Shown here: positions 13,151 to 57,281 of the stretch, in pieces
Layout of the letters: each line of letters opens with the position of its first letter
Numbering within the stretch: the stretch's first letter is position 1
NCBI GenBank assembly: GCA_041665345.1
Contig: JBAYJA010000001.1
Coordinates: forward strand, 329,206 to 393,205
Direction of reading: 5' to 3'
DNA: 64,000 bases
Source of the DNA: Patescibacteria group bacterium
Lineage (GTDB): Bacteria > Patescibacteriota > Patescibacteriia > PEXW01
Program-made: the position numbers and the translations under genes
Notes under the pieces: generated by a model
What the model was told of the DNA's origin: nothing
Database searches by the model: none
The model's input: the letters and a program-made list of their open reading frames with translations, nothing else

Positions 13151-13155
13151 GCACT

Positions 13156-15204: not shown

Positions 15205-15206
15205 CC

Positions 15207-16133: not shown

Positions 16134-16134
16134 T

Positions 16135-16782
16135 ATGGACACTACCCCTGAGCAAATCCTCCTGACGATATTCTTCCTCACGATTGTGATGCTGCACATC
16201 GTGAAGAAAAACTCTGGCACAGCCATCCTCTACGGCCTACAATCTCTCACTGTCGTTCTGCTGCTCGTGCATACGTTTGCGGCTACCAGGGATATTTCCA
16301 TTCTCATTATTGCCGCCCTTCTACTTATTGTGAAAGTCATTCTTGCACCAAGTTTCTTCCTGCGTCTCATTCGGAAGCACGAGCTAAAATTTTCAGTCAG
16401 CACGTACGTGAACCTACCGTTGACACTTGTCATGGTAACCGTTCTGACAGCCATTGCGCATTCCCAGGTTTTTGGCCCACTCATCAACCACATCCCTGCC
16501 AATCAGCAGTACTTGTCCTTGTCCCTGGCTGCGCTGTTCATCTCTCTCTTCCTCATTGTGAATCGGAAGGGTGCGCTTTCACAAATTGTTGGCATCCTCT
16601 CGCTGGAGAACTGCATCGTTGCCTTTGCACTTTTTGCCGGTTTGGAGCAGTCACCCGCATTGCAAATTGGCGTCCTCTTCGACATTTCAGTGTGGATTAT
16701 TATTGCCAGCGTGTTCATCACCATGATTCACAGGCATTTTGGCACGTTGGACGTGACGGAAATGCGGCACTTAAAAGAGTAA
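16135..16782 (+). CDS. HyfE/NuoK-like membrane subunit
   Basis: 215 aa, 6-7 TM; size and position typical for hydrogenase-4 component E. Confidence 0.6.
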   Translation: MDTTPEQILLTIFFLTIVMLHIVKKNSGTAILYGLQSLTVVLLLVHTFAATRDISILIIAALLLIVKVILAPSFFLRLIRKHELKFSVSTYVNLPLTLVMVTVLTAIAHSQVFGPLINHIPANQQYLSLSLAALFISLFLIVNRKGALSQIVGILSLENCIVAFALFAGLEQSPALQIGVLFDISVWIIIASVFITMIHRHFGTLDVTEMRHLKE

Positions 16783-16786
16783 CCGT

Positions 16787-18229: not shown

Positions 18230-18230
18230 T

Positions 18231-32460: not shown

Positions 32461-32667
32461 ATGAGCAAAAATATGGAAAAGGGAACGGAGAAACAATTAT
32501 TTACGGCTATTAAAATAGCCCGTAAGCAACTTTCTGAACTTAGTGTACATCAACGATCAACTCTAGAAAAAACTTGGGATATTGAGCATGCATATTATTC
32601 AAGCACGCTTGAAGGAAGTAAGCTGGATCGATCAGAGTTCAATCGGCTTGGTGAAGAGGTTCAATGA
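32461..32667 (+). CDS. FicA/VbhA-like antitoxin carrying the Fic inhibitory motif
   Basis: 68 aa containing SSTLEG, which fits the (S/T)xxxE(G/N) inhibitory-helix motif; stop overlaps the Fic start (ATGA). Confidence 0.55.
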   Translation: MSKNMEKGTEKQLFTAIKIARKQLSELSVHQRSTLEKTWDIEHAYYSSTLEGSKLDRSEFNRLGEEVQ

Positions 32668-33344
32668 TGGTAAGTTCTGATTTTCGTCGTCCACTAGACG
32701 AGGAAGAACTTCAAAAACGATCAGCGCTTGGAGTAATCCGAGCGTCACGTTTTATTAGAAAATTTGCTCACCAGCATCAACCGATAAACGTTGATGTATT
32801 TTGTGAAATACACAAGAAAATTTTTTTTGATGTGTGGCCTGAAATAGCGGGAACATACAGGCGTGAAAATTTAGAAATCACAGATTCTAAGCTTGTGCTA
32901 CCCCATTATTCAGAAGTTCCTCAATTAATGCACAAAATGAACGAAGACCTAAAGGACAAATTATCCTCCTTAGGCCAGGTTGAAGGAATTATAAATACCT
33001 CTAAAACACATACTGAAGATGAGGAAAAAATAATTGAAGCAACCGAACATGTTATTGGAGTTGCAGCTTGGGCGCATCATCGTATTACCTATATTCACCC
33101 TTTCCGAGAGGGGAATGGTAGAACAGGAAGGTTAGCCGCAAATTTGATTCTAGAAAGGTATGGGCTGGTTGGTATTTCGGTAAAGGTTGAAAAGGAAAAC
33201 AAAAATCGATATCGGAAAGCTTTAGCACAGATTGATGCGGAAAGTGATTATGAACCTTTGATAAGTATTATTTATGAAGGCTTGATTGACCGATATCAAG
33301 GGGTGAGTATTAAGTACTATGAGTATAAGGGAAAGACTCGGTAA
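32664..33344 (+). CDS. Fic-family protein (class I FicT-like AMPylator/toxin)
   Basis: Canonical Fic motif HPFREGNGRTGR; 226 aa without an inhibitory helix of its own. Confidence 0.8.
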   Translation: MMVSSDFRRPLDEEELQKRSALGVIRASRFIRKFAHQHQPINVDVFCEIHKKIFFDVWPEIAGTYRRENLEITDSKLVLPHYSEVPQLMHKMNEDLKDKLSSLGQVEGIINTSKTHTEDEEKIIEATEHVIGVAAWAHHRITYIHPFREGNGRTGRLAANLILERYGLVGISVKVEKENKNRYRKALAQIDAESDYEPLISIIYEGLIDRYQGVSIKYYEYKGKTR

Positions 33345-33406: not shown

Positions 33407-36400
33407 ATGCCCCTGTTGCCAACCCTGAACCCTGCCCAAAAGCAAGCGATAACCCACACGGCTGGGCCGCTTTTGATTGTGGCAGGCGCGGGCACGGGCA
33501 AGACGACGGTGGTGACCCAGCGCATTGCCTGGCTCATTACCGAGCAGAAGGTCAAGCCGGACCACATTCTGGCCCTCACCTTCACGGACAAGGCGGCTGG
33601 GGAAATGGAGGAGCGGGTGGACAAGCTGCTGCCCATGGGCTACGTGGATTTGTGGGTGAGCACGTTCCACAGCTATTGCGAGCGGGTGCTGCGGGACCAC
33701 GCCTTGGATATTGGTCTGAGCCCGGACTTCACTTTGCTGGATGAAACTGACCAAGCGATTCTGATGCGGGAGAATTTGGAGAAGTTTGAACTCAACTACT
33801 ACCGACCGCTGGGCAATCCCACCAAATTTGTGACGAGTTTGATTTCCCATTTTTCACGGTGCAAGGATGAAGCTATTCGACCTGAGGAATACTTGAAGTT
33901 TGCGGAGAAGGTGAAACTTGATTTGGATCAGGTGCATGGCCGCAAAAAGAAATCAGAGGATGATGCCGCGCAGATAGTAGAAGCGGAGAGGATAAACGAA
34001 GTAGCAAATGCGTATCATACATATCAACAGTTATTGTTTGAAAAAAGCTGCTTGGATTTTGGTGACCTTATCACACAGACGCTGTATCTGTTCCAGCAGC
34101 GGCCAAAGATTTTGCAGCGGTACCAGGAGCAGTTCCAGTACGTGCTGGTGGATGAATTCCAAGACACCAACTGGGCGCAGTACGAGCTGGTGAAGATGCT
34201 GGCCGCGCCCAAGAACAATTTGACCGTGGTGGGGGATGATGACCAGAGCATTTACAAATTCCGTGGCGCCAGCGTGGCCAACATTCTGGCGTTCAAGAAA
34301 GACTACCCCAAGGCAAAGGAAGTGGTGCTGACTGAAAATTACCGCAGCACGCAGAACATTCTGGATTTGGCGTATAAATTTATCCAGCACAATAATCCGA
34401 ATCGATTGGAAGTACAGATGCAGAGCCGTAAAGCCGTAAGCCGTAGAGCTGTAAGTTCTGAGGGGAAGAAGGGACAGGGGATAAGTAAAAAACTCGTCGC
34501 ACAGTCAGAAGACACTGGCGAAATTGGGGTGTGGCAAATGCCGACGTTGGAGCAGGAGGCGAGTGCGGTGGTGGAAAAAATAATCGAACTTAAGAAAAAA
34601 AATGCTGAGAGCTCGTACAATGATTTTGCCGTGCTGGTGCGCGCCAATGACCATGCCACGCCGTTTCTGCAGCGGCTAAAGGCGGCAAATGTGCCGTTCC
34701 AGTTTTTGGCCTCGGCTGGGCTGTACCGCCAACCAATTATTTTGGACATTCTGAATTACCTGAAGCTCTTGGACAACTACCACGAGACTGCGAGCTTGTA
34801 CCGGATTCTCACCTTGCCCTTGCTAGCCATTCCTTTGCCAGATGTGATGCACATGCTGGCAGTGGCCAAGCGGGAAACCAAGTCCTTGTTCGACATTACT
34901 AAGCAAGCGCGGGCGCTCACCAGTTTGCAGCCGGCCACCATTGCATCGGTGGAAATTTTGCACGGGTGGTTGGAAGCGCACAGCCAGCTGGCGCGCACGC
35001 AGCCAGTGGGGGAAGTCACCCTGAAGTTCTTGGAAGACTCCGGCATGCTGCAGCAAATTACCGGCACCACGGATGCGGAGCATTTGGAGCAGGTGGGTTT
35101 TGTGAACCAGCTCTTCCAAGTGTTCCACAGTTTCCAGAGCCGGCACGCAGACCCTACGGTGGCTAATTTTTTGCGGGAGCTGGCTTTTGCCCAGGATGCT
35201 GGCGATGCTGGAACACTCAAGCCCCCGGAATGGGAGCAGGGGCCAGAGGCCGTGAAAGTCATGACTGTGCACGGGGCTAAGGGCTTGGAATTTCCGTACG
35301 TGTTCATTGTGAATTTAGTGGACAAGCGTTTCCCAACCGTGGAGCGGCGCGAACCCATTGCCATACCAGATCCGCTGGTGCGAGAAAAAGTACCGGAGGG
35401 GGACTGGCATGTGCAGGAAGAGCGCCGGTTGTTTTACGTGGGTATCACCCGGGCCAAGCGCGGCGTCTTCTTCCTGATGGCGGAGGACTACGGCGGCAGT
35501 CGAAAGAAAAAGCCTTCGCGTTTCATTCCAGAACTCGGAGTGCAGATTGTGTCGAAGCAGGTCCAAGGCAAACTCACCGAAGCACCCACGCAAGCACCGG
35601 GCCGCGTGGATGATGATCACGCCTTGCTGCGCCAGGCCATTCCGGCGGCATTCAGCTTCACACAAATTAAAGCGTTTGAAAATTGCCCTAAGCAGTACAA
35701 GTACGCGCACCTGCTGAAAATCCCGGTGCCGGGCCACGCGTCTTTAAGCTTTGGCCAAACCATCCACAACACTTTGCTCAACTTCTTCAAACTGGCGCGG
35801 GAGCGGAGCATCACTGGCCAAGCAGATTTGTTTGGGACCAAGCCAACGGTCGCGTCAGACAAGCCAGCTGTGAGTTGGGCTGAGCTGCAAGAGTTGTACA
35901 AAGCCGCGTGGATTGACCAGTGGTATGCGAATGTGAAGCAGAAGCAGGAGTACAAGCAGCGCGGCGTGCAGTTTCTCAAAAACTTCTACGACAGTTTGCC
36001 CACGCCCTGGCCGCAGCCTGTGGAACTGGAAAAAGGTTTTACCATTGCCATTGGCGGGCACAAACTACGCGGAAAAATTGACCGCATTGACCCAGCCAGT
36101 GGGGGCATTGCCATTCTGGATTACAAGACCAGCGAGAAACCGCCAACGGATCCAAGCAAAGCAGACCTGGAGCAGCTTCACCTGTACGCCATTGCCGCGC
36201 GGGAAGCCCTGGGCAAAAATCCGGTGAGCTTATCGTACATCTACCTAGCCACGGACAAACCCTACACCTACCCAATTGATGAGGCAGCCATTGCGAAAAC
36301 TAAGGCCAAGGTGGAGGGGACCATTGCCGCAATCCTGGCTAGTAACTTCAAAGCCACCCCAGCCAAGCACATTTGCGACCACTGTGATTTCCGGAATATT

Positions 36401-36424
36401 TGCGAGGATCGGTGGCGGGGATGA
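33407..36424 (+). CDS. UvrD/PcrA-type helicase fused to a C-terminal PD-(D/E)xK Cas4/AddB-like nuclease (AddA/RecB-like)
   Basis: N-terminal LNPAQKQAITHTAGPLLIVAGAGTGKTT (helicase motif I), further UvrD motifs, C-terminal ILDYKTSEKP...HLYAIAA...CDHCDFRNIC (nuclease with Cys cluster). Confidence 0.85.
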   Translation: MPLLPTLNPAQKQAITHTAGPLLIVAGAGTGKTTVVTQRIAWLITEQKVKPDHILALTFTDKAAGEMEERVDKLLPMGYVDLWVSTFHSYCERVLRDHALDIGLSPDFTLLDETDQAILMRENLEKFELNYYRPLGNPTKFVTSLISHFSRCKDEAIRPEEYLKFAEKVKLDLDQVHGRKKKSEDDAAQIVEAERINEVANAYHTYQQLLFEKSCLDFGDLITQTLYLFQQRPKILQRYQEQFQYVLVDEFQDTNWAQYELVKMLAAPKNNLTVVGDDDQSIYKFRGASVANILAFKKDYPKAKEVVLTENYRSTQNILDLAYKFIQHNNPNRLEVQMQSRKAVSRRAVSSEGKKGQGISKKLVAQSEDTGEIGVWQMPTLEQEASAVVEKIIELKKKNAESSYNDFAVLVRANDHATPFLQRLKAANVPFQFLASAGLYRQPIILDILNYLKLLDNYHETASLYRILTLPLLAIPLPDVMHMLAVAKRETKSLFDITKQARALTSLQPATIASVEILHGWLEAHSQLARTQPVGEVTLKFLEDSGMLQQITGTTDAEHLEQVGFVNQLFQVFHSFQSRHADPTVANFLRELAFAQDAGDAGTLKPPEWEQGPEAVKVMTVHGAKGLEFPYVFIVNLVDKRFPTVERREPIAIPDPLVREKVPEGDWHVQEERRLFYVGITRAKRGVFFLMAEDYGGSRKKKPSRFIPELGVQIVSKQVQGKLTEAPTQAPGRVDDDHALLRQAIPAAFSFTQIKAFENCPKQYKYAHLLKIPVPGHASLSFGQTIHNTLLNFFKLARERSITGQADLFGTKPTVASDKPAVSWAELQELYKAAWIDQWYANVKQKQEYKQRGVQFLKNFYDSLPTPWPQPVELEKGFTIAIGGHKLRGKIDRIDPASGGIAILDYKTSEKPPTDPSKADLEQLHLYAIAAREALGKNPVSLSYIYLATDKPYTYPIDEAAIAKTKAKVEGTIAAILASNFKATPAKHICDHCDFRNICEDRWRG

Positions 36425-49884: not shown

Positions 49885-50358
49885 ATGCCCAAGCGCGAAA
49901 ACTACCTTTCCTGGGATGAGTGCTTCATGCAAATGGCGCACCTCATTGCCGAACGTTCCAAAGACCCCAGCACCCAAGCTGGAGCAGTGATTGTGAATGA
50001 CAACAAGATTGTGGTGGGTTTGGGCTACAATGGCTTTCCCCGTGGCATTAAAGACGATGAACTGCCATGGGAACGGGAAGGCGCCATGCTGGACACGAAG
50101 TACGCCTACGTGGTGCACGCTGAGGAAAATGCCGTGTACAACGCCAATGCCAGCACCAAAGGCTGCACGCTCTACACCACGCTTTTCCCCTGTAACGAAT
50201 GTGCAAAAACCATTATCCAGAATGGAATTACCGAAGTGGTGTACACCTCTGACAAGTACAGCGACACGGATATTTGGAAAGCGTCCCGGAAGTTACTCTC
50301 CCTAGCAGGGGTAACCTGCCGATTATTCAACCCACAATTCAAACTCAAATTAGTATAG
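49885..50358 (+). CDS. deoxycytidylate (dCMP) deaminase
   Basis: HAEENAV and PCNECAK zinc-binding motifs; ATG at 49885 preferred (ORF open from 49804). Confidence 0.85.
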   Translation: MPKRENYLSWDECFMQMAHLIAERSKDPSTQAGAVIVNDNKIVVGLGYNGFPRGIKDDELPWEREGAMLDTKYAYVVHAEENAVYNANASTKGCTLYTTLFPCNECAKTIIQNGITEVVYTSDKYSDTDIWKASRKLLSLAGVTCRLFNPQFKLKLV

Positions 50359-50359
50359 T

Positions 50360-50917
50360 ATGGTCATTGGCATTACTGGTTTACCCGGCGCAGGGAAGGG
50401 GACGGCTGCAGCGTACCTGGTGGAAAAGTACGGCGGCGTGTCCAAGCAGTTTTCTGGGCCCTTGCGGGACATTGTGAAGCGCTTGCACCAGTCTGTGACG
50501 CGGGAGCACTTGCAGGAGCTTGCCAAAGCTTTGCGCGGGATTTTTGGGAATAATGTGCTGGCCGAGACGCTGCTCGGGGATCTGAAAGCCGATACCACGC
50601 CGCTGGTGGTTATGGAGGGTTTTCGGTACCACGATGAGTACAAAATATTGCGGCAACACCCAGACTTCCAATTTGTGGCAATTGAAGCTTCGTTTGAAAC
50701 CCGGCTGGGGCGTATCCAGCAACGCACGGAAAATGTGGGTGATGGGCAAATCACAGCCGAGTCTTTTGCCAAGCAGCATGAGCACGAAACCGAGAAAGCC
50801 ATTCCAGAGCTCATTGCTTTGGCTGACCATCACATTGATAACAGTGGCAATGTTACCCAGCTTTACGCACAGCTTGATGCGCTGATGACCAAACTCGGCC
50901 ATGCACCTAAGAGTTAA
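50360..50917 (+). CDS. P-loop nucleoside/nucleotide kinase-like protein (paralog A of three)
   Basis: GITGLPGAGKGT Walker A; shares ...DGFR..DE....R..PDF..V.I.A....RL.RI..R... with the genes at 55322 and 55892. Confidence 0.55.
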   Translation: MVIGITGLPGAGKGTAAAYLVEKYGGVSKQFSGPLRDIVKRLHQSVTREHLQELAKALRGIFGNNVLAETLLGDLKADTTPLVVMEGFRYHDEYKILRQHPDFQFVAIEASFETRLGRIQQRTENVGDGQITAESFAKQHEHETEKAIPELIALADHHIDNSGNVTQLYAQLDALMTKLGHAPKS

Positions 50918-51323
50918 ACTTCTGCACCCAGACGCAACCCTGCCCAAGTACGCCCACGACGGCGATGCGGGGTTTGATGTGTTTGCGAAAGAGGATGTCA
51001 CCATCCCAGTTGGTGAGCGTCGGGCGATCTACCTTGGCTTTTCCGCGGAAATCCCCGACGGAACAGTCGCGCTAGTTTGGGACAAAGGGGGGATTGCCGC
51101 TAAGCAAGGTATAACCTCACTGGCCGGTGTTATTGATGCCGGGTACCGGGGGGAGTGGTTGGTGGTGTTGCATAACCTTGGTTCTGAGCCGTTCACTTTT
51201 GCCAAAGGCATGAAGGTTGCACAAGTACTCATTCAGCAGGTGGAGCGCCCAACCATTGAAGTTGCTCAGGAACTTTCCGAAACCGCCCGCGGGGCAGGGA
51301 AGTTCGGCAGTACAGGCCAATAA
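50901..51323 (+). CDS. dut: dUTP diphosphatase
   Basis: GFDVFA, AGVIDAGYRGE, C-terminal RGAGKFGSTG motifs. Confidence 0.9.
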   Translation: MHLRVKLLHPDATLPKYAHDGDAGFDVFAKEDVTIPVGERRAIYLGFSAEIPDGTVALVWDKGGIAAKQGITSLAGVIDAGYRGEWLVVLHNLGSEPFTFAKGMKVAQVLIQQVERPTIEVAQELSETARGAGKFGSTGQ

Positions 51324-51387
51324 GATGATCGAAACGTGGGTAGCCAAAGCCCTCGCTTTGGCAGTATTGGCGTACGTTTTTTACCAA

Positions 51388-51417
51388 GTGGGTAGCCCGG
51401 GTCCTTTGACCCGGGCA
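51388..51417 (+). repeat. 30-nt palindromic repeat, copy 2
   Basis: gtgggtagcccgggtc-cttt-gacccgggca; differs from copy 1 only in the loop. Confidence 0.8.
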
Positions 51418-51483
51418 TTTGGCCTCCCGCCTTGACTAGCTTCAGACATAGCGTTAGGGTCAAAGCAAACTGAAGGAGGTTTT

Positions 51484-51771
51484 GTGGTAAAAGCAGTTCT
51501 TTGCAAGCTCGTTTCCTCGAATGATACCGGGGAGCACGAATGTCCTGATGGCTCAATGGTTGGCGATCTCATTCGGCAAGCCAAAATACCTTTTGACCTT
51601 GATTCCGAAAAGGTGATTCGGGTGCACCTCCCGGAAGATGGGCGAGCTGCATGGGTTGAAACCGTAGGAATGAGTGATGAAGTTGACTATGGTGACTTTG
51701 TGGGCTACATCATTGTGCCAAAGACCTTTATTCTCTACGAACATTTGAGTAAGCCCATAAACGAGACCTAG
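51484..51771 (+). CDS. hypothetical small protein
   Basis: GAAGGAGG RBS plus GTG; 95 aa; followed by a terminator. Confidence 0.45.
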   Translation: MVKAVLCKLVSSNDTGEHECPDGSMVGDLIRQAKIPFDLDSEKVIRVHLPEDGRAAWVETVGMSDEVDYGDFVGYIIVPKTFILYEHLSKPINET

Positions 51772-51787
51772 TTGCTATCCTGGCATG

Positions 51788-51816
51788 AGCCGACATTCTT
51801 CTAGTGTCGGCTTTTG
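51788..51816 (+). terminator. rho-independent terminator
   Basis: gccgaca-ttcttctag-tgtcggc followed by TTTTG. Confidence 0.7.
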
Positions 51817-51819
51817 ATC

Positions 51820-51847
51820 TTGCCAAATTCTTCAAACATGCTAAGGT
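51820..51847 (+). promoter_or_regulatory. promoter TTGCCA-N16-TAAGGT (copy 1 of a duplicated promoter module)
   Basis: attgccaaattcttcaaacatgctaaggta; near-identical module at 52821. Confidence 0.5.
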
Positions 51848-51953
51848 ACATCCTTCTTTGAAAACTAAAGAAATCCACGCGCATTTTTGTGTAATTGTTG
51901 TAACCCGGCCAGCCCAGCATGGGCCAGCCACAACCACGAAAGGTAGGCCAGTC

Positions 51954-52757
51954 ATGAAAAATGACAAGCCAACTTTGACTTCAGGGATTCCACGCGGAGT
52001 GGAAACGCAAACCCTTTTGGCGCTACAAAAGCAAGGAGTCTCAATTGCTGACTATGCTGCCATAGGTACAAATTTTGCCCTGCGTGTCGAAATCGTTGCG
52101 ACGCTCATGAAACACCGATTGTTCGCCACGCCAGAAGAGCAAATGACTAGTCTGCTTCGTATTAACGAACAGGTCTGGAAAGACCCGACTATCACTATGG
52201 CGGCAATGAAAGCCATTGGCGATCCTCCGCCGTGTCCAATGCTAGATGAAATACACCTGTATTGCGTCGTCCTGCTATCGGAAACCGGGGATCCAATCCG
52301 GACCTTTGCACGTAATTGGGCAGCCTGCGAGTTCGTCCATAGTGGCAACACGTGGAAGTACGATGGTCTGGTCTTCACCCCTCAGATTGTGCGTGTTCGG
52401 GAGAAAGCCATCCCTCGTCCCGTTGGCCTCCGTTGGGCGATTGCCGAACTGGGTCGCACGTATCTATACGACGACAAAATACCAGATGTGTTAGCAGAAC
52501 TCGATCGAACCCAAACCATGGTTATGGGTCAGGAATTACCACTCATTGCAGCATTGCATCCAAAATGGGTAACGCAAATGAACACGACAGATATTCCTCC
52601 CGTATTTGCGCCTGACCTTGAGGTTTCACTCATCGGGGAGAGTCATTACGACCATCGGCCGTTACTCTTTTTCAGGAACCGTGGTGATGGAGTGGGGCTT
52701 ATTCCGGACCTCATTGGCCGTACAAACGACGGCTATAGCTTTGGCTTCTTCCGCTAG
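51954..52757 (+). CDS. hypothetical protein
   Basis: 267 aa from the internal ATG (ORF open from 51804); no recognised domain. Confidence 0.45.
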   Translation: MKNDKPTLTSGIPRGVETQTLLALQKQGVSIADYAAIGTNFALRVEIVATLMKHRLFATPEEQMTSLLRINEQVWKDPTITMAAMKAIGDPPPCPMLDEIHLYCVVLLSETGDPIRTFARNWAACEFVHSGNTWKYDGLVFTPQIVRVREKAIPRPVGLRWAIAELGRTYLYDDKIPDVLAELDRTQTMVMGQELPLIAALHPKWVTQMNTTDIPPVFAPDLEVSLIGESHYDHRPLLFFRNRGDGVGLIPDLIGRTNDGYSFGFFR

Positions 52758-52820
52758 TTTGAAATGTATTCCGCCGATCCTTTTCGAGGCAGCACATACC
52801 CGTGTTGCCTCTTTTTCATA

Positions 52821-52848
52821 TTGCCAAATTTCTAAAACGTGCTAAGGT
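52821..52848 (+). promoter_or_regulatory. promoter TTGCCA-N16-TAAGGT (copy 2)
   Basis: attgccaaatttctaaaacgtgctaaggta immediately upstream of the ThyX-like gene. Confidence 0.5.
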
Positions 52849-52857
52849 AGTTCCGCC

Positions 52858-54441
52858 ATGCCAAAGGAAATCCTGTCCAACGAGCGCGACATCTTTGCCA
52901 TTACCGGCCTGCCCCCGGAGGTCTTGGCTGTGGGTATGGCCAAGTACTCCCGGTCTGCCGCCTCCATTAAAGACACCATTGCCGAGCTGACCGAGGAGAA
53001 ATCTGCCGAATTCCACGAGAAGTGGGTTATTGGCTATGGGGACGCGTCTGTGGCGGATATGGCTGTCATTGCCCTGGCCTGTGAAAACGTCTCTATATTG
53101 GCAAGTAAAGCCATTGAGGACCACCGTTTGGCCAGCTACCAGGAGAAGTCCACCCGGTATATCAGCTTTGAGCGGCAGGTCCAGCCAGATGGCTCTGCCT
53201 TGCCCCGGCGCTACTACCGGCCCACACCCATTGCAGAGTCTGCGCATGCTGGTTTGTACGAACGAACCTGCGAGCAGATGTTTGACGCGTACAGCGATTT
53301 GACGCAAACCATGGTGGAGTACTACCGACGGGAATACCCCATGCCGGCGGATGGCAAGGAAAAACTGTACACGGCGAAGTTGAAAGCGCGAGCCTTGGAC
53401 ATTGCACGGTACGTCCTGCCTGCAGCTACCCTGACGAATTTGGGCTGGATTACGTCGGCCCGTAGTTTGCGGCGGGCGATTTTCAAAATGGGTCAGTCAG
53501 ATTTGGATGAAGTGCGAAAAATTGCCAGTGAGGTGCAGCACGCAGCCACGAGCCCAGCGCACAACCCACAAGCGCAGAAAGTGGAACCCTTACTCTGGAA
53601 AGCGGAAGAGCAAACCGACCCTATTGTCCAAGAGCTTGTCCAGAATTTGCGCGCCAATCTCAACCTCACAGTGAAAGGTGCACCTACCCTTATCAAGCAC
53701 ACAGAGCCCACACCCTTTGCAGCCGCGCGCCGCCGGCGTATTCGGGCTATGGCCGCCACACTCCTGGGTGACCTGCATGTACTGGACAATGAACCCCGTG
53801 TTACCTTCCACCCACATGTCCATCCCGAAGTGGAATTGGCTACGTCCCTCCTCTACGAAGAGACGCAGTTTAGCTACGGGCAAATTCAAGAGGTGGTCAT
53901 GGGTCTCAGTGCTGCGGAACGGGCTGAAGTCATTGCGGCAGGAACCGCAGACCGTGGATCGCATGATTTGATTGGCCGGCCATTTGAAGTGGGAAACTTG
54001 GTCTTTGACACGCTCATGGACTATGGTGCCTTCCGGGATTTACAACGGCATCGCATGTGCACGCAAATCAACCAGCCACTGACGGCAGAGCATGGGTTTG
54101 AAAAACCGCCCGCACCCATGGGTATGGAAGCCGCAGGTGCCTTGGACATTTTTGAAACCGTTTTCCAAGAAGTCCAAAGTGCGTACCGCATTCTGGCAGC
54201 TGACTTCCCGCACGAAGCAGCGTACGTCTTGCCTTTGGCTACCCGCAAGCGCACGCTCTTTAGCATGAATGCGCGGGAGCTGACCCATTTGGTAGAATTA
54301 CGTTCGCGCTCCGGTGGCCATGTCTCCTACCGGTGGATTGTGCGGGACATGTTGGAGCAAGCCAAAGCGCACTACCCAGAGTTGGTTCGGCATATTCGCA
54401 TTGCGGACATTGACTTCGTAGCGGATTTTCACAAACGGTAA
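52858..54441 (+). CDS. thyX: tandem-duplicated flavin-dependent thymidylate synthase (ThyX-ThyX fusion)
   Basis: Domain 1 has EDHRLASYQEKSTRY (ThyX RHR-x7-S motif with DHR but Ser retained); domain 2 has DLQRHRMCTQINQP (RHR retained, Ser position is Pro). Confidence 0.65.
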   Translation: MPKEILSNERDIFAITGLPPEVLAVGMAKYSRSAASIKDTIAELTEEKSAEFHEKWVIGYGDASVADMAVIALACENVSILASKAIEDHRLASYQEKSTRYISFERQVQPDGSALPRRYYRPTPIAESAHAGLYERTCEQMFDAYSDLTQTMVEYYRREYPMPADGKEKLYTAKLKARALDIARYVLPAATLTNLGWITSARSLRRAIFKMGQSDLDEVRKIASEVQHAATSPAHNPQAQKVEPLLWKAEEQTDPIVQELVQNLRANLNLTVKGAPTLIKHTEPTPFAAARRRRIRAMAATLLGDLHVLDNEPRVTFHPHVHPEVELATSLLYEETQFSYGQIQEVVMGLSAAERAEVIAAGTADRGSHDLIGRPFEVGNLVFDTLMDYGAFRDLQRHRMCTQINQPLTAEHGFEKPPAPMGMEAAGALDIFETVFQEVQSAYRILAADFPHEAAYVLPLATRKRTLFSMNARELTHLVELRSRSGGHVSYRWIVRDMLEQAKAHYPELVRHIRIADIDFVADFHKR

Positions 54442-54476
54442 AGCAGACTGGGAGAAGCAGCTAGCGCCAATTTTTC

Positions 54477-55232
54477 CTATTCAAATTTACCAATCAACGC
54501 GCTCCATACCACTTTCAGGATGTGGCGGTTTTGACGTTTGTAGTATCGGTGGAGGTAGACGTAGCCAATAATGAGCCCAATGGCTACGGGGATACTAAAG
54601 GGCCAGTACTGCAGGAAGAACGGTTTTAGTTCCAGGGGGTAGTACCCAATGCCAAACCACAGGAAAGACCAGATGATCTCTCCAAACAGTGCGAGCCAGA
54701 AGAAACTCCAGAACGGCATTTTTAGCATGCCTGCGGCGTAGTTCACAAAACCTAAGATGCCGGCGAACAGAAATCGAGTAACAAAAACCAAGCGCTTGCC
54801 GCCGTGCTGAATGTAGTGGTAGGCCTTTTGGTAGTCTGGGTCATCTTCGGAAACCCCAAGCCACGCCAAGAAGGTATGGCGGAATCGGCGAGCCAGCGCG
54901 TAGGCAATAACATCACCGAGGATGGAAGCAATGGTGATAATCGCAATGGAAATGGCAGGCTGAAATTCCCCGCGTGATGCCGCTAAGCCAATGCCAATAG
55001 GAAGGAAGCTTGATGGCAGGCCAGCCAGAATATTCGCCGCCACAATCCACAGGAAAATAATGGGGTAGCCGTAGCGTTGAGTCCAGGCCAGCACGTGGAC
55101 TTGCACCACGTCACTGAAAATGAAGCTCAGCACCCAGATAACAAAAAAGACCGTGAGGATCTTTATGGTAATTTTCCACCATTTTTTGGAGCGGATTTTT
55201 TTCGCCTGCATGTGGTCATTCAGCGAGTGCAT
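54477..55232 (-). CDS. DedA/TVP38 family membrane protein
   Basis: Polytopic; ...GGKRLVFVTRFLFAGILGFVNYAAGM... DedA signature. Confidence 0.7.
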   Translation of the reverse strand: MHSLNDHMQAKKIRSKKWWKITIKILTVFFVIWVLSFIFSDVVQVHVLAWTQRYGYPIIFLWIVAANILAGLPSSFLPIGIGLAASRGEFQPAISIAIITIASILGDVIAYALARRFRHTFLAWLGVSEDDPDYQKAYHYIQHGGKRLVFVTRFLFAGILGFVNYAAGMLKMPFWSFFWLALFGEIIWSFLWFGIGYYPLELKPFFLQYWPFSIPVAIGLIIGYVYLHRYYKRQNRHILKVVWSALIGKFE

Positions 55233-55321
55233 ACCTCCATATAGTACTGTTTTCCTCAGGCTTTGCCTAGGTAAAAGAAAACTGCCCTTTTGGAAAAGAG
55301 CAGTTTGAAAAGTTCGGGGCG

Positions 55322-55876
55322 CTAGGCTACGCGATGTCGTTTGAGAATGTGTCGGAGAACTGACTGTACTTCTTCGGTAAACTCAGCTACGGTGCCGTTA
55401 TTCACAATAATGTCGCTTGCGCTGGAGAGCAGAAAGGGAATGTCTCTTTCTGTGGGCTGTTTATCTTGCTGTCGCAAGTCATCCACGCCCAGGTTGCTTT
55501 CAGAAGCATCGCGGTTTCTACTCCGTATGCGTTCTAGGCGCATGGCAAGGTGGGTTTGCAAACCAACGAGCACAAAGTCTGGTCGCTGAGCCAGCCAGGT
55601 GAGTTCCTCTGCATATCGCACTGCATCAATGACGGTGAGCTGGCTCTCCCGAGCCTTCCGGAGAAGGCTGCAGATTATGGATGTTGGCCCCTCGGTGTCG
55701 TGGATTTTTGCTCCCAGGGCTTGGAGGGTTCCGCGGCTGATCGGCTCACCACGTTCCTCTAAGATTTTTCTCAGTAGCGTTGAGGCAGAAAGAATTTGAG
55801 CATCGAATTGTTCCGCGGCAATTTTGCAGAACATGCTTTTCCCGCAGGCAGAATGCCCTGTTAGTCCAATAATCAC
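55322..55876 (-). CDS. P-loop kinase-like protein (paralog B)
   Basis: MIIGLTGHSACGKS...; aligns with paralogs A and C across the full length. Confidence 0.55.
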   Translation of the reverse strand: MIIGLTGHSACGKSMFCKIAAEQFDAQILSASTLLRKILEERGEPISRGTLQALGAKIHDTEGPTSIICSLLRKARESQLTVIDAVRYAEELTWLAQRPDFVLVGLQTHLAMRLERIRSRNRDASESNLGVDDLRQQDKQPTERDIPFLLSSASDIIVNNGTVAEFTEEVQSVLRHILKRHRVA

Positions 55877-55891
55877 ATTTCCTCCTTTGGG

Positions 55892-56440
55892 TTAGGTTTT
55901 TTGCTGAAACGTCTTCAGGTAGTGGCTGACCAAATTTTCCAGGTGTTGCCGTGTGTCATTGTTCAAAATCGTGTACGCACATTTGGACAGGAGTGTTGGC
56001 ACCTCGCTTTCATTGGGGTGCATATCCTGTTGGTGCAGGGTTTTCGGTGTCAGCCTGCCTTCCATGGGGTCTCGGCGCCGGCGCCGAAGTCGTTCTAGCC
56101 GCATGGTGAAAGGTGCTTGCACTCCAACGAGATGGAAATCTGGTCGGCTCCGTATTGGCGCAATATCTGCAAGGCGCCGAATGCCGTCAATGACGAGTAG
56201 GGGTTTGGCTGTTGCCACATGGAGGCGTAGTGCCTCAGCCAGAAAGTACTCACCACCATTTTGCTTTATGGACAAGCTGAGCGCCGCAACGTGTTCGCGG
56301 GTTGGTTCAAGCTGCAGCGCCTTGAGGATTTTCCAGAGTGGGTCTGACATGAGGTAGACTTCTGCGTCAAATTTTTTTCGCAAAATCTCCGCTATTGTCC
56401 CCTTGCCTGTGCCGGGTAGGCCAATGAGACCAAGAATCAT
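55892..56440 (-). CDS. P-loop kinase-like protein (paralog C)
   Basis: MILGLIGLPGTGKGT...LVIDGIRRL...PDFHLVGVQAPFTMRLERLRRR... Confidence 0.55.
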   Translation of the reverse strand: MILGLIGLPGTGKGTIAEILRKKFDAEVYLMSDPLWKILKALQLEPTREHVAALSLSIKQNGGEYFLAEALRLHVATAKPLLVIDGIRRLADIAPIRSRPDFHLVGVQAPFTMRLERLRRRRRDPMEGRLTPKTLHQQDMHPNESEVPTLLSKCAYTILNNDTRQHLENLVSHYLKTFQQKT

Positions 56441-56549
56441 GCGCTCTCCTTTGGGTTGTTCAGGTACTTGTTTTCTGGCCGTACCTTAGCATTTTTGTAT
56501 ATCAGGTCAAGGTTGTTTCCAGGCCCAGGAGACTGCTACACTACAGCAT

Positions 56550-57281
56550 ATGACCAAAGTCAAACGGGGCGCATTTATTATGGTGGATGGCATTGACGGC
56601 TCTGGCAAAGGTACGGTGGTGGATGCCTACGGTGCCTGGGCAAAGCAGAAGCAATTGACGGTATTTGACGTGCGCGCGTACGCCAAGGGGTCTGGGAAAT
56701 TGCCCCAGCCAGCTGATTGGCAGGATGCGGATTTGCTCCTTTCTGCTGAACCAACCCATGCCGGGGTGGGCCGGGTGATCCGGGAAGAGATTGTGCACGA
56801 CAATGGTCGAGACTACTCGGGGTACGTTACCGCTGAAGCTTTTAGTCTGGACAGACTCATTCTCTACAAGTCTGTCATTCTCCCTGCACTTGCAGCCGGG
56901 AAAACAGTCGTGCAAGAACGGGGCGTTTCCTCATCCATTGCTTACCAGCCAGCCCAAGGCAAGGTGACATTGCAACAATTACTGAAGTTGGAAGGGAATG
57001 CGTTTGCCCTTAAGTTTCGGCCTGACTTACTGTTAATCACGGTCTGCCCGCCCGACGTCTGCATGCGCCGCTTGCAAGCACGAACGAAGAAGCAGGACAA
57101 GGCAATTTTTGAAAAGCGCGCGTTCCTGGCCAAGCTCGATAAGCGTTACCGCAGCCCGTGGTTCATTAATCTCTTTCAGAAGCGGGGGAGTGTGGTGGGA
57201 TTTTTGGACACCAATGATACTTTCCAGGAGACGCAGCAGGAGAGCGTGGGATACATTAACGACTTCTTGACCAAAGTATGA
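56550..57281 (+). CDS. thymidylate-kinase-family protein (dTMP kinase-like)
   Basis: VDGIDGSGKGT P-loop in Tmk-like context, about 243 aa; substrate specificity not certain. Confidence 0.55.
   Translation: MTKVKRGAFIMVDGIDGSGKGTVVDAYGAWAKQKQLTVFDVRAYAKGSGKLPQPADWQDADLLLSAEPTHAGVGRVIREEIVHDNGRDYSGYVTAEAFSLDRLILYKSVILPALAAGKTVVQERGVSSSIAYQPAQGKVTLQQLLKLEGNAFALKFRPDLLLITVCPPDVCMRRLQARTKKQDKAIFEKRAFLAKLDKRYRSPWFINLFQKRGSVVGFLDTNDTFQETQQESVGYINDFLTKV

What the first reader, a model, noticed from the sequence alone, without database searches (positions are those of the whole stretch)
49885..57281. dNTP-salvage cluster containing three paralogous P-loop kinases of unassigned specificity
Within about 7.5 kb lie dCMP deaminase, kinase paralog A, dUTPase, a fused ThyX, kinase paralogs B and C (tandem, opposite strand) and a Tmk-family kinase. 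The three paralogs (about 185 aa) share G[IL]xGxxGxGK[GS]T, DG[FI]R, PDFxxVG[IV]Q and RLER[IL]RxRxRD but are not typical Cmk/Adk/Gmk. Given the context they could be dedicated dNMP kinases with different base preferences, a plausible adaptation in a salvage-dependent organism.
Basis: partly seen in the sequence, partly recalled or inferred. Interest (0 to 1): 0.55.

Follow-up and report, generated by a model that had tools for sequence, protein, structure and literature searches.

The report
dCMP-deaminase-linked nucleotide kinases, three copies
A tiny uncultivated bacterium carries three copies of a small, uncharacterised nucleotide-kinase family usually mislabelled "dephospho-CoA kinase"; one copy is a widely conserved partner of dCMP deaminase in the pathway that makes the DNA base thymine, which gives this orphan family a testable job.

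Summary
Window 49885-57281 encodes dCMP deaminase, kinase A, dUTPase, a double-domain ThyX, kinases C and B (tandem, minus strand) and a bona fide Tmk.

A, B and C are true paralogs (27-36% identity, E 1e-23 to 1e-32). They have an NMP-kinase fold and belong to the UPF0200/PRK08356/arCOG01045 family. That family is routinely annotated as dephospho-CoA kinase, but its Thermococcus members lack that activity.

Kinase A is conserved and translationally coupled between dCMP deaminase and dUTPase across many Patescibacteria. In a sister clade, 41 of 80 metagenomic loci fuse the kinase to dCMP deaminase and 18 more have the deaminase directly downstream. In one DPANN archaeon the kinase sits between NrdR and a non-homologous dCTP deaminase.

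Best reading: A is a deoxycytidylate (dCMP/dCDP) kinase at the thymidylate branch point. The pathway link is well supported; the substrate is inferred.

B and C form a rare, divergent sister clade that is absent from close relatives, so they are accessory rather than a core dNMP-kinase set. This is a new member of a known but unassigned family, of moderate interest.

The parts
49885..50358 (+). dCMP deaminase (157 aa; HAE and PCxxC zinc motifs). Its stop lies 1 nt before the start of kinase A.
   Evidence: PF00383 88.2 bits; gene call in L001; found directly upstream of kinase A orthologs in 18 of 34 GTDB loci.
50360..50917 (+). Kinase A (185 aa). NMP-kinase fold, UPF0200/PRK08356/arCOG01045 family. 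The conserved member of the cluster; overlaps dUTPase by 17 nt.
   Evidence: PDB SSO1041 3e-11 alone and 9e-35 with the profile; model pLDDT 92.9, top Foldseek hits 3LW7/3H0K; phrog_139 4e-20; orthologs of 44-81% identity in syntenic loci.
50901..51323 (+). dUTPase (140 aa).
   Evidence: TIGR00576 130.5 bits, cut-off 102.55.
51484..51771 (+). orf95, unknown. No family hit. Absent from relatives' clusters; probably not part of the pathway.
   Evidence: No Pfam, NCBIfam or PHROG hit; no tblastn hit in related loci.
51954..52757 (+). Conserved hypothetical protein (267 aa form). Inserted between dUTPase and ThyX in this genome only.
   Evidence: 37 homologs of about 265 aa, none with a Pfam domain; contexts elsewhere are unrelated; confident model with no PDB or BFVD fold match.
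52858..54441 (+). Flavin-dependent thymidylate synthase ThyX, tandem double-domain form (527 aa).
   Evidence: PF02511 155.7 bits, two stretches; homologs of 522-526 aa in relatives.
54477..55232 (-). DedA/VTT-domain membrane protein. Part of the lineage-specific insertion that also carries kinases C and B.
   Evidence: PF09335 67.3 bits; absent between ThyX and Tmk in relatives L004 and L008-L010.
55322..55876 (-). Kinase C (184 aa, GTG start). Divergent paralog with P-loop GHSACGKS and DAVR in place of DGxR.
   Evidence: ribosome-binding site AAAGGAGG upstream of the GTG; distant relatives P0122 (48%) and P0123 (40%); terminator-like hairpin at 55306-55279 after its stop.
55892..56440 (-). 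Kinase B (182 aa). Divergent paralog, first gene of the B-C bicistron, divergently transcribed from Tmk.
   Evidence: no relative above 34% identity in either protein search; invariant family residues retained.
56550..57281 (+). Thymidylate kinase Tmk (243 aa). Overlaps gatB by 4 nt.
   Evidence: TIGR00041 101.1 bits, cut-off 83.25; PF02223 81.7 bits.

Best explanation
A, B and C are small single-domain phosphotransferases with the nucleoside-monophosphate-kinase fold. They belong to the UPF0200/PRK08356/arCOG01045 family, which has no assigned function and is commonly mislabelled dephospho-CoA kinase.

Kinase A is the housekeeping member. It is co-translated with dCMP deaminase and dUTPase, upstream of ThyX and Tmk. 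It most likely interconverts dCMP and dCDP (ATP + dCMP <-> ADP + dCDP) at the branch point where deoxycytidine nucleotides are either kept for dCTP or deaminated to dUMP for thymidylate synthesis. Run in the reverse direction, it would feed RNR-derived dCDP as dCMP to the deaminase. The same kinase-deaminase pairing exists elsewhere as a single fused polypeptide, and more distantly in the anti-phage dCTP deaminase AvcD/DcdV.

Kinases B and C are a separate, rare and fast-evolving sister clade. They were inserted as their own two-gene operon, with a DedA gene, between ThyX and Tmk in this lineage only. They keep every catalytic residue but have replaced residues in the presumed NMP-binding region. 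They are probably active (d)NMP kinases with altered or additional substrate range and are not essential to the pathway.

Shown: gene content, paralogy, fold, family membership, non-membership of CoaE/Adk/Cmk, conserved synteny and fusions.
Inferred: the phosphate-acceptor type, from motifs. The dCMP/dCDP identity of the substrate, from context. Everything about the specificity of B and C.
For: Family and fold:
- Profile A2 matches S. solfataricus SSO1041 (UPF0200; 3H0K, and 3LW7 solved with AMP) at 9e-35 over its full length.
- The model of A has pLDDT 92.9. Its top Foldseek hits are 3LW7/3H0K (TM 0.77-0.83), followed by AK5, AK1, UMP/CMP kinase and CoaE.
- The HMM alignment to yeast UMP kinase and human AK1 is full-length. 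It lines up S-D-x-L-R with (S)AGDLLR, DGxR with DGFPR, and RxxRxxxR with the LID arginines.
- G, GK, R89, R115, R118, R122 and N161 are invariant in 26 diverse members, including B and C.

Pathway link:
- The deaminase stop is 1 nt from the start of A, and A overlaps dUTPase by 17 nt.
- The deaminase-kinase-dUTPase(-ThyX-Tmk) order recurs in relatives at 44-81% kinase identity.
- dCMP deaminase lies directly upstream of the kinase in 18 of 34 GTDB loci across several Patescibacteria lineages. dUTPase follows the kinase in two further loci.
- In the sister clade, among 80 metagenomic loci, 41 encode a single kinase-dCMP deaminase ORF of about 333 aa, 18 have the deaminase directly downstream and 3 have it upstream. 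In 8 of the remaining 18 the contig ends too close to the kinase to tell. NrdR, RNR, Tmk, dUTPase or ThyX lie nearby in many of these loci. One fusion was confirmed by Pfam.
- A Woesearchaeota member lies in NrdR-kinase-dCTP deaminase (dUTPase-superfamily DCD) with RNR nearby. This is the same association with an analogous, non-homologous deaminase.

Labelled relatives:
- phrog_139 'deoxynucleoside monophosphate kinase': A 4e-20, B 3.5e-11, C 1.6e-8.
- Phage homologs sit in replication and nucleotide modules.
- The next-best NCBIfam hits include the kinase part of the anti-phage dCTP deaminase and the archaeal (d)CMP kinase TIGR02173.

B and C:
- Intact ORFs with matching ribosome-binding sites and all invariant residues.
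- They group with P0122, P0123 and P0141 as a sister clade.
- They are absent from relatives' clusters.
- R59, nearly invariant in the family, is K in B and H in C. DGxR is DAVR in C. R36 is W in B.
Against: - No enzymology exists for any member of this clade. The only tested relatives (TK1334, TK2192) were assayed only for dephospho-CoA kinase (PMC6650551).
- Context cannot separate a dCMP kinase from a deoxycytidine kinase, or from a nucleotide-sensing regulatory partner of the deaminase.
- In AvcD/DcdV the homologous domain is required, but no kinase activity has been demonstrated for it (10.1101/2021.03.31.437871).
- Scores against every curated equivalog are below cut-off: PRK08356 33-45 bits against 189; TIGR02173 at most 23 bits against 102.
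- R36, the NMP-phosphate ligand in adenylate kinase, is not invariant even within the A clade (W in P0012).
- The PHROG name is an annotation label, not a tested function.
- I could not inventory the rest of the 1.08-Mb genome. I do not know whether a canonical Cmk, Gmk, Adk or Ndk is present, which bears directly on what gap A, B and C would fill.
- The NJ tree has no support values, and B and C sit on long branches.
Confidence: 0.5

Rival explanations
1. Kinase A is a deoxynucleoside (deoxycytidine) kinase. It phosphorylates salvaged deoxycytidine to dCMP, the step immediately before dCMP deaminase. The cluster would then encode a linear salvage route dC -> dCMP -> dUMP -> dTMP -> dTDP. B and C would be further deoxynucleoside kinases.
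For: Fused enzymes usually catalyse consecutive steps, and making dCMP is the step before deamination (fusions). Patescibacteria are generally regarded as salvage-dependent (general knowledge). The family's C-terminal half resembles CoaE, a hydroxyl-phosphorylating kinase (2if2, 4e-13, in two partial stretches).
Against: The motif set is that of phosphate-acceptor NMP kinases: S-D-x-L-R aligned to GDLLR, and DGxR aligned to DGFPR. There is no counterpart of the CoaE Asp base or of the dNK Glu and ERS motif. There is no hit to Pfam dNK (PF01712) for A, B or C. NrdR and RNR neighbourhoods point to de novo dCDP flux as much as to salvage.
Confidence: 0.15
2. The kinase-like protein is not a metabolic kinase. 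It is a nucleotide-binding regulatory or scaffolding partner of the deaminase, as may be the case for the P-loop domain of the anti-phage dCTP deaminase AvcD/DcdV. The deaminase plus A, and perhaps B and C, would then be a split defence-type nucleotide-depletion module.
For: A, B and C hit the kinase segment of PADLOC dCTPase (1.2e-8, 3.4e-5, 1.1e-7) and of NF041025. The deaminase hits the same models (4.2e-31). B and C are variable and lineage-specific, as defence genes often are. The P-loop domain of DcdV is needed for deaminase function, without a demonstrated kinase activity (10.1101/2021.03.31.437871).
Against: All scores are far below the equivalog cut-off (at most 134 bits against 400, even for a true fusion). 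The deaminase-A-dUTPase unit sits in a fixed core position after SecE-NusG-L11-L1 and next to ThyX, Tmk and GatB in many lineages, which is housekeeping behaviour and not a defence island. Fused forms also neighbour Tmk, dUTPase, RNR and NrdR. All catalytic NMP-kinase arginines are invariant.
Confidence: 0.12
3. All three are broad-spectrum dNMP kinases of the phage type (like the T4 and T5 enzymes), acquired from viruses. Each phosphorylates several dNMPs, and together they replace missing canonical Gmk, Cmk or Adk.
For: phrog_139 'deoxynucleoside monophosphate kinase' is the best labelled match for A and C and second-best for B. Homologs of 25-31% identity occur in Moorella, Bacillus, Paenibacillus and Arthrobacter phages. 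A tandem double-kinase fusion lies next to a phage metallopeptidase gene. Faint PF21448 (T4 DNMK) hits occur at the P-loop.
Against: T4 gp1 (1DEK) matches only the P-loop (E 0.39) and is absent from the profile hits. The PHROG label is not experimental. A shows vertical, syntenic conservation across Patescibacteria rather than a mobile context. B and C are missing from relatives with the same lifestyle, so they cannot be the general replacement for core kinases.
Confidence: 0.15
4. They are dephospho-CoA kinases (CoaE), as JGI annotates them.
For: JGI names A, B and C 'dephospho-CoA kinase'. Weak CoaE hits exist (PF01121 about 19 bits, TIGR00152 14-26 bits). The profile hits Aquifex and Thermotoga CoaE at 4e-13 and 6e-10.
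Against: All scores are below the curated cut-offs (27 and 65.55). The CoaE matches are partial (P-loop and C-terminal helix), whereas UMP kinase and AK1 align over the full length. Recombinant archaeal family members TK1334 and TK2192 have no dephospho-CoA kinase activity (PMC6650551). Three copies in a genome of about 1 Mb, embedded in dTMP-synthesis genes and fused to dCMP deaminase elsewhere, make no sense for CoA synthesis.
Confidence: 0.03

Closest known systems
UPF0200 / PRK08356 / arCOG01045 P-loop proteins of archaea (S. solfataricus SSO1041, PDB 3H0K/3LW7; T. kodakarensis TK1334 and TK2192)
   Same: Same length (about 180 aa), same fold and same motif set: GxPGxGK[GS], S-D-x-[LV]-R, DG[IV]R, RYxRxxxR, ADxxIxNdG. 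The profile match is 9e-35 over the full length. They carry the same 'dephospho-CoA kinase' misannotation, and their function is unknown (PMC6650551).
   Different: The window proteins are bacterial (Patescibacteria) and only 25-30% identical. They score 33-45 bits against the PRK08356 equivalog cut-off of 189. Unlike the archaeal proteins described in the literature, the A clade has a fixed genomic partnership with dCMP deaminase.
Anti-phage dCTP/dCMP deaminase AvcD/DcdV (NF041025; PADLOC dCTPase): an N-terminal P-loop kinase domain fused to a dCMP-deaminase domain
   Same: Homologous kinase-like module paired with a homologous zinc deaminase. Family members hit the kinase segment of the model (A 23 bits, P0060 64.7 bits, a 331-aa fusion 133.7 bits).
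   Different: Here the two are separate genes, in the opposite order (deaminase first). They sit in a conserved housekeeping neighbourhood with dUTPase, ThyX and Tmk. There is no sign of the AvcI RNA antitoxin context, and scores are far below the 400-bit cut-off. AvcD is about 530 aa, whereas the widespread fusions found here are about 333 aa.
Short-LID NMP kinases (UMP/CMP kinase, adenylate kinase isoenzyme 1/5)
   Same: Full-length alignment, the same topology, an Adk-type P-loop in A and B (GLPGxGKGT), and equivalents of the GDLLR motif, the DGFPR arginine and the LID arginines.
   Different: Pfam ADK scores 15-17 bits against a 26.8 cut-off. DGxR lacks the proline. An acidic residue (E93 in A, D in B, E in C) replaces the base-reading Gln/Asn four residues after the arginine. 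The C-terminal 'ADxxIxNxG' segment is CoaE-like.
Phage deoxynucleoside monophosphate kinases (PHROG 139; by name related to the T4 gp1 / T5 dNMP kinase concept)
   Same: Best labelled profile match over the whole protein (A 4e-20). Phage members lie among dUTPase, SSB and replication genes.
   Different: Only 25-31% identity. The PHROG name is inherited annotation. The structurally characterised T4 enzyme (1DEK, PF21448) matches only at the P-loop.
Dephospho-CoA kinase CoaE
   Same: P-loop region and the C-terminal helix/strand 'RxxxR...Q...ADxxIDNxG' resemble CoaE.
   Different: There is no Asp-x-Asp acceptor-activating motif and no PLL(F)E motif. Scores are below cut-off. Tested relatives are inactive on dephospho-CoA (PMC6650551).

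Membership tests
UPF0200/PRK08356/arCOG01045 superfamily | Significant full-length sequence match to a structurally defined member (SSO1041) | tested here: met
   A alone 3.1e-11 over residues 2-169; family profile 8.9e-35 over 2-178.
UPF0200/PRK08356/arCOG01045 superfamily | Same three-dimensional fold as SSO1041 | tested here: met
   Model pLDDT 92.9; Foldseek top hits 3LW7/3H0K, TM 0.74-0.83, probability 1.00. Only A was modelled.
UPF0200/PRK08356/arCOG01045 superfamily | Motif set: P-loop, S-D-x-L/V-R, DGxR, RxxRxxxR, ADxxIxN | tested here: met
   Invariant G4, G7, G12, K13, R89, R115, R118, R122 and N161 in 26 members including A, B and C. The same motifs are visible in the SSO1041 alignment. 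C has DAVR and B has W at position 36.
NCBIfam NF006226 (PRK08356) equivalog | Score at or above the curated cut-off of 189 bits | tested here: not met
   A 41.2, B 33.3, C 45.1 bits. They are relatives, not equivalogs.
Dephospho-CoA kinase CoaE | Score at or above the curated cut-offs (PF01121 27 bits; TIGR00152 65.55 bits) | tested here: not met
   PF01121: 19.4 and 18.7 bits for A and C, none for B. TIGR00152: 21.9, 13.8 and 25.8 bits. N-terminal stretch only.
Dephospho-CoA kinase CoaE | Acceptor-activating acidic motif after strand 2 (D-x-D) and full-length collinearity | tested here: not met
   In the alignment to 2if2, the family's 'slsdvLR' faces 'DA-DKLIH', and the match breaks into two partial stretches. 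That the motif is defining for CoaE is from my own knowledge.
Dephospho-CoA kinase CoaE | Dephospho-CoA kinase activity | not testable with these tools
   Family members TK1334 and TK2192 were inactive in vitro (PMC6650551). The window proteins are untested.
Adenylate / UMP-CMP kinase (Pfam ADK) | Score at or above the 26.8-bit cut-off | tested here: not met
   17.0 bits (A) and 14.9 bits (B), P-loop only; no hit for C. The family profile nevertheless aligns full-length to 1uky and AK1 at about 1e-10.
Bacterial/archaeal (d)CMP kinase (TIGR00017, TIGR02173) | Score at or above the cut-offs (135.55 and 102.1 bits) | tested here: not met
   TIGR02173: A 23.1, C 16.7, P0060 30 bits. TIGR00017: C 14.3 bits.
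T4-type dNMP kinase (PF21448 DNMK) | Score at or above the 27.1-bit cut-off; match beyond the P-loop | tested here: not met
   16.6 bits (A) and 15.3 bits (B), covering residues 3-50 and 3-78. 1DEK E 0.39, residues 3-39 only.
PHROG 139 'deoxynucleoside monophosphate kinase' | Significant full-length profile match (PHROGs has no curated cut-off) | tested here: met
   A 4.1e-20 (residues 1-179), B 3.5e-11, C 1.6e-8. The functional name of the PHROG is not experimentally verified here.
Anti-phage dCTP deaminase AvcD/DcdV (NF041025) | Single polypeptide with an N-terminal P-loop domain and a C-terminal deaminase; score at or above 400 bits | tested here: not met
   Separate genes in reversed order. 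Kinases score 20-23 bits and the deaminase 85.6 bits.
Thymidylate kinase (for the fourth kinase, 56550-57281) | TIGR00041 at or above 83.25 bits | tested here: met
   101.1 bits.

The most novel reading that the evidence does not exclude
The whole UPF0200/PRK08356/arCOG01045 family includes the nearly universal archaeal proteins whose function has been open since they were shown not to be dephospho-CoA kinases. On this reading the family is a dedicated deoxycytidylate phosphotransferase. It couples ribonucleotide-reductase output (dCDP) or salvaged dCMP to the dC-to-dU deamination step of thymidylate synthesis, acting as a physical or fused partner of dCMP deaminase. The anti-phage enzyme AvcD/DcdV would be a weaponised descendant of this housekeeping pair. 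The extra clade represented by B and C would then be a neofunctionalised branch with a different (d)NMP substrate. The missing archaeal GMP kinase (PMC4177761) is one candidate activity worth testing in the family.
Probability: 0.3. Interest if true: 0.7.

Novelty: new member of a known kind. Interest (0 to 1): 0.45.

Why it matters
The family is large: about 3,000 clusters (50% identity) at E<=1e-10. It is spread over Patescibacteria, DPANN and other archaea, and phages. It is systematically misannotated as dephospho-CoA kinase or as a generic AAA ATPase. Its only published biochemical result in the literature I could search is negative (PMC6650551).

The gene-order and fusion evidence assembled here ties the family to one specific metabolic node, dC nucleotides entering thymidylate synthesis. 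That turns "unknown P-loop kinase" into a short list of assays.

It would also correct CoA-pathway calls in metabolic reconstructions of ultra-small symbionts. It would clarify how these organisms balance dCTP against dTTP. And it suggests a housekeeping origin for the kinase domain of the AvcD/DcdV nucleotide-depletion defence enzymes.

Tried and rejected
- Literature search for UPF0200, SSO1041 and AdkA-like returned nothing. Searches for an identified archaeal GMP kinase, for structural work on the AvcD kinase domain and for Patescibacteria nucleotide kinases gave nothing usable.
- A follow-up search for arCOG01045, TK1334 and TK2192 found no later characterisation.
- The first locus scan, with the 26-sequence alignment, failed for lack of a conserved stretch. 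It was redone with the A clade and the DPANN-type clade. Both scans are pattern-biased towards those clades.
- Context of the closest C relative (P0122) was a 2.6-kb contig with only a HAD hydrolase downstream, which is uninformative.
- I considered that B and C might be a recent in-genome duplication of A. I rejected this because they share derived motifs with P0122, P0123 and P0141 and branch outside the A clade.
- I considered horizontal acquisition flagged by composition. GC (0.52-0.53) and GC3 of B and C are only slightly below their neighbours, so this is inconclusive.
- The promoter/terminator scan found no more sites than chance. Only the hairpins at gene ends (after orf95, orf267 and kinase C) are worth noting.
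- I looked in the 64-kb window for canonical Adk, Gmk, Cmk, PyrH, Ndk or CoaE and found none. This says nothing about the other roughly 1 Mb of the genome.
- One look-up failed because the ORF start I chose was not the called start.

Full report
**1. What is there**

The window comes from a Patescibacteria (CPR) metagenome-assembled genome. Kinase A is 100% identical to a protein that NCBI calls 'AAA family ATPase [Patescibacteria group bacterium]' and JGI calls 'dephospho-CoA kinase'. That protein lies on a 1,075,605-bp contig.

The interval 49885-57281 lies directly after SecE-NusG-L11-DUF5671-L1. Its genes are:
- dCMP deaminase, 49885-50358 (+).
- Kinase A, 50360-50917 (+).
- dUTPase, 50901-51323 (+).
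- orf95, 51484-51771 (+).
- A conserved hypothetical, 51954-52757 (+).
- A 527-aa double-domain ThyX, 52858-54441 (+).
- A DedA/VTT membrane protein, 54477-55232 (-).
- Kinase C, 55322-55876 (-).
- Kinase B, 55892-56440 (-).
- Tmk, 56550-57281 (+), overlapping gatB.

The deaminase stop is 1 nt from the start of A, and A overlaps dUTPase by 17 nt, so these three are translationally coupled. B and C are 15 nt apart. Each is preceded by CCCAAAGGAG. They are followed by a 12-bp hairpin with a T-run, so they look like a separate bicistron, divergent from Tmk.

**2. Are the three kinases paralogs?**

Yes. A/B share 34% identity (E 1e-26), A/C 27% (8e-23) and B/C 36% (8e-32).

Several are specific to B and C, and C has a different P-loop. 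In 26 diverse homologs the invariant positions are the P-loop G/G/GK, R89 (in DGxR), R115, R118, R122 and N161. All are kept in A, B and C, which argues that all three are functional.

**3. Which family?**

Pfam gives only generic AAA_17/18/33 hits. CoaE, ADK, Cytidylate_kin and T4 DNMK are all below their gathering scores and mostly P-loop only. In NCBIfam the best hit for all three is NF006226/PRK08356 'hypothetical protein', at 33-45 bits against a cut-off of 189. The kinase part of the anti-phage dCTP deaminase NF041025 also matches all three, and archaeal (d)CMP kinase matches A and C. All of these are sub-threshold.

Against solved structures, A alone hits S. solfataricus SSO1041 at 3e-11. 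This is a UPF0200 protein, PDB 3H0K, and 3LW7 'adenylate kinase-related protein bound to AMP'. The family profile hits it at 9e-35 over the full length.

The AlphaFold model of A (pLDDT 92.9) is closest to 3LW7/3H0K (TM 0.77-0.83). After that come AK5/AK1, UMP/CMP kinase, CoaE and shikimate kinase.

The profile aligns full-length with yeast UMP kinase and human AK1. It puts S-D-x-L-R on (S)AGDLLR, DGxR on DGFPR and RxxRxxxR on the LID arginines. CoaE matches only in two partial stretches, the P-loop and the C-terminal 'ADxxIDNxG' region. This is therefore an NMP-kinase-like enzyme with a CoaE-like C-terminus.

**4. What is known about that family?**

Shimosaka et al. (PMC6650551) showed that the two T. 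kodakarensis proteins annotated as dephospho-CoA kinase, TK1334 and TK2192 (both arCOG01045), have no such activity. The real archaeal enzyme is unrelated. They state that the function of arCOG01045, present in nearly all archaea, remains unclear.

From the primers in that paper, TK1334 starts MIVIVTGM... and TK2192 ...MIIG..., which resemble the N-termini of this family. Equating them with UPF0200 and PRK08356 is my inference. I found no later characterisation.

The public 'dephospho-CoA kinase' label should be regarded as wrong.

**5. Context evidence for function**

(a) Close relatives with kinase A orthologs at 56-78% identity keep L1-deaminase-kinase-dUTPase, and where the contig extends far enough also ThyX and Tmk-GatB.

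(b) A scan of one genome per GTDB species found 34 loci. dCMP deaminase lies directly upstream of the kinase in 18 of them, down to 31-40% kinase identity. These include Parcubacteria, Moraniibacteriota, Lloydbacteria and Magasanikbacteria. dUTPase, ThyX or Tmk usually lie downstream. Two Uhrbacteria-type loci have L1-kinase-dUTPase without the deaminase.

(c) One Armatimonadetes locus encodes a single 331-aa protein with the kinase at 1-175 and the dCMP deaminase at 189-308.

(d) I scanned metagenomes with the sister 'MIIGLTG..AGKGTVAEYL' clade, which includes DPANN archaea, a Myxococcota MAG and others, and checked reading frames. Of 80 loci:
- 41 are such fusions (about 333 aa).
- 18 have a separate dCMP deaminase directly downstream.
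- 3 have it upstream.
- 8 end too close to the kinase to tell.
- 10 have none.

NrdR lies nearby in 10 (immediately upstream of the kinase in most), and Tmk, dUTPase, RNR or ThyX are nearby in several.

(e) In a Woesearchaeota population the kinase lies in NrdR-kinase-dCTP deaminase, with a ribonucleotide reductase 3 kb away. This deaminase is the dUTPase-superfamily DCD, unrelated in fold to dCMP deaminase.

So the kinase is associated with two analogous enzymes that perform the same dC-to-dU conversion. That is the strongest argument that its ligand is a deoxycytidine nucleotide.

(f) The homologous module is the N-terminal P-loop domain of the anti-phage AvcD/DcdV dCTP/dCMP deaminases.

(g) The best labelled profile is phage family phrog_139, 'deoxynucleoside monophosphate kinase' (A 4e-20). 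Phage homologs lie among dUTPase, SSB and replication genes.

**6. Mechanistic reading**

Shown: an NMP-kinase fold with a complete catalytic set, and an obligate-looking partnership with dC deaminases inside thymidylate-synthesis and RNR neighbourhoods.

Inferred:
- The acceptor is a nucleoside monophosphate. The DGxR arginine and the S-D-x-L-R motif correspond to the two arginines that hold the NMP phosphate in adenylate and UMP/CMP kinases.
- Given the partner, the acceptor is dCMP, with dCDP in the reverse direction. The enzyme would set the dCMP/dCDP balance. It would send salvaged dCMP towards dCTP, or return RNR-made dCDP to dCMP for irreversible deamination to dUMP, followed by ThyX and Tmk.
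- A family-wide acidic residue four positions after R89 (E93 in A, D in B, E in C) sits where adenylate kinase has Gln and UMP/CMP kinase has Asn. This is compatible with reading an exocyclic amino group. It is a weak argument.

I put about 0.95 on family membership, about 0.8 on a role in deoxypyrimidine metabolism for A, and about 0.4 on dCMP/dCDP specifically. The overall confidence given for the best explanation is 0.5.

The main rivals are a deoxycytidine kinase feeding the deaminase, a non-catalytic nucleotide-sensing partner as possibly in AvcD, and a broad phage-type dNMP kinase. CoaE is essentially excluded.

**7. Kinases B and C**

An exhaustive HMMER search of 1.84 billion cluster representatives found 8,123 family members at E<=1e-3. 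None is closer to B than 34% identity. Only P0122 (48%), P0123 (40%) and P0141 (35%) are close to C.

These sequences share RLERxRxRxRD, QQDxxPxE, and in the C group GH..GK and D[AC]xR. In an unsupported NJ tree they branch as sister to the deaminase-linked CPR clade.

In the closest relatives, the ThyX-Tmk interval lacks DedA, C and B; in L004 it holds a single unrelated 247-aa ORF instead. No second family member lies within 7 kb of the kinase in any of the 34 GTDB loci.

B and C have substitutions in the presumed NMP-binding region: R59 to K or H, R36 to W in B, and DGxR to DAVR in C. This is consistent with changed substrate preference.

Multiple copies of the family in one unit do recur elsewhere, as 380-395-aa tandem double-kinase proteins. 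One of these lies beside a phage metallopeptidase gene.

B and C are therefore real, probably active, accessory kinases of unknown specificity. The idea that the organism needs three dedicated dNMP kinases is not supported, because its relatives manage with one.

**8. Verdict**

The thing itself is a new member of a known, functionally unassigned family. What is useful is the strong, previously unremarked (in the literature I could search) link between this family and dC deaminases. That link makes the family's function directly testable.

**Limits**

- There is no enzymology.
- Locus scans were seeded with clade-specific peptide patterns.
- The tree has no support values.
- The rest of the genome could not be inventoried for canonical kinases.
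- Only A was modelled.

Noticed in passing
window 51954-52757 (+): A 267-aa conserved hypothetical protein lies between dUTPase and ThyX. It has about 37 homologs of roughly 265 aa, mostly from metagenomes and Patescibacteria, none with a Pfam or PHROG hit. Its AlphaFold model is confident (pLDDT 89, pTM 0.86), but Foldseek finds nothing in the PDB or BFVD at E<=0.001. Homologs sit in unrelated contexts, so it is probably not part of the nucleotide pathway. It may have an undescribed fold.
   Followed up: partly
window 52858-54441 (+): ThyX is a 527-aa tandem double-domain form with two Thy1 stretches, conserved at 522-526 aa in close relatives. More distant Patescibacteria loci show matches of single-domain length. 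From memory, a similar long ThyX exists in Chlamydia; I did not check this.
   Followed up: no
window 2622-3407 (+): A heliorhodopsin gene (PF18761) in this Patescibacteria genome.
   Followed up: no
window 12611-19808 (+): A seven-gene cluster resembling a membrane-bound Mbh/Mrp-type or complex-I-like module: Oxidored_q6, two Proton_antipo_M, NADHdh, Oxidored_q2, and a fused Complex1_30kDa/49kDa. This is unusual energy-metabolism content for a 1-Mb CPR genome.
   Followed up: no
window 3931-4569 (+): Another small P-loop protein (212 aa) with weak, sub-threshold AAA_28/AAA_18/AAA_33 hits at the P-loop only. It is a possible further nucleotide or nucleoside kinase, unrelated to A, B and C.
   Followed up: partly
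window 32667-33344 (+) and 33407-36424 (+): A Fic-domain protein lies immediately upstream of a 1005-aa UvrD-type helicase with a C-terminal PD-(D/E)XK nuclease domain (AddA-like).
   Followed up: no
L005:4244-5612 (relative GCA_964362715.1): In a close relative, a bAvd gene and a reverse transcriptase (RVT_1) are inserted between gyrB and secE. These are the hallmark of a diversity-generating retroelement. The insertion is absent from the window.
   Followed up: no
L037:7001-8262 (Parcubacteria MAG VMHB01000001.1): A more distant family member overlaps by 4 nt a downstream archaeal-type IMP cyclohydrolase-like gene (PF07826, 95.5 bits). This hints that some branches of the family are linked to purine rather than deoxypyrimidine metabolism.
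   Followed up: partly
L048:4501-6716 (Woesearchaeota): NrdR overlaps the kinase gene by 4 nt and is followed by a 374-aa long-form dCTP deaminase. An NrdR-controlled kinase-DCD operon in a DPANN archaeon is a good system for testing the family's function.
   Followed up: partly
window 55322-55876 (-): Two public annotations (JGI, and NCBI locus tag WC786_00120) call kinase C as a 170-aa protein starting after the P-loop. The GTG start with a strong ribosome-binding site gives the full 184-aa protein.
   Followed up: yes
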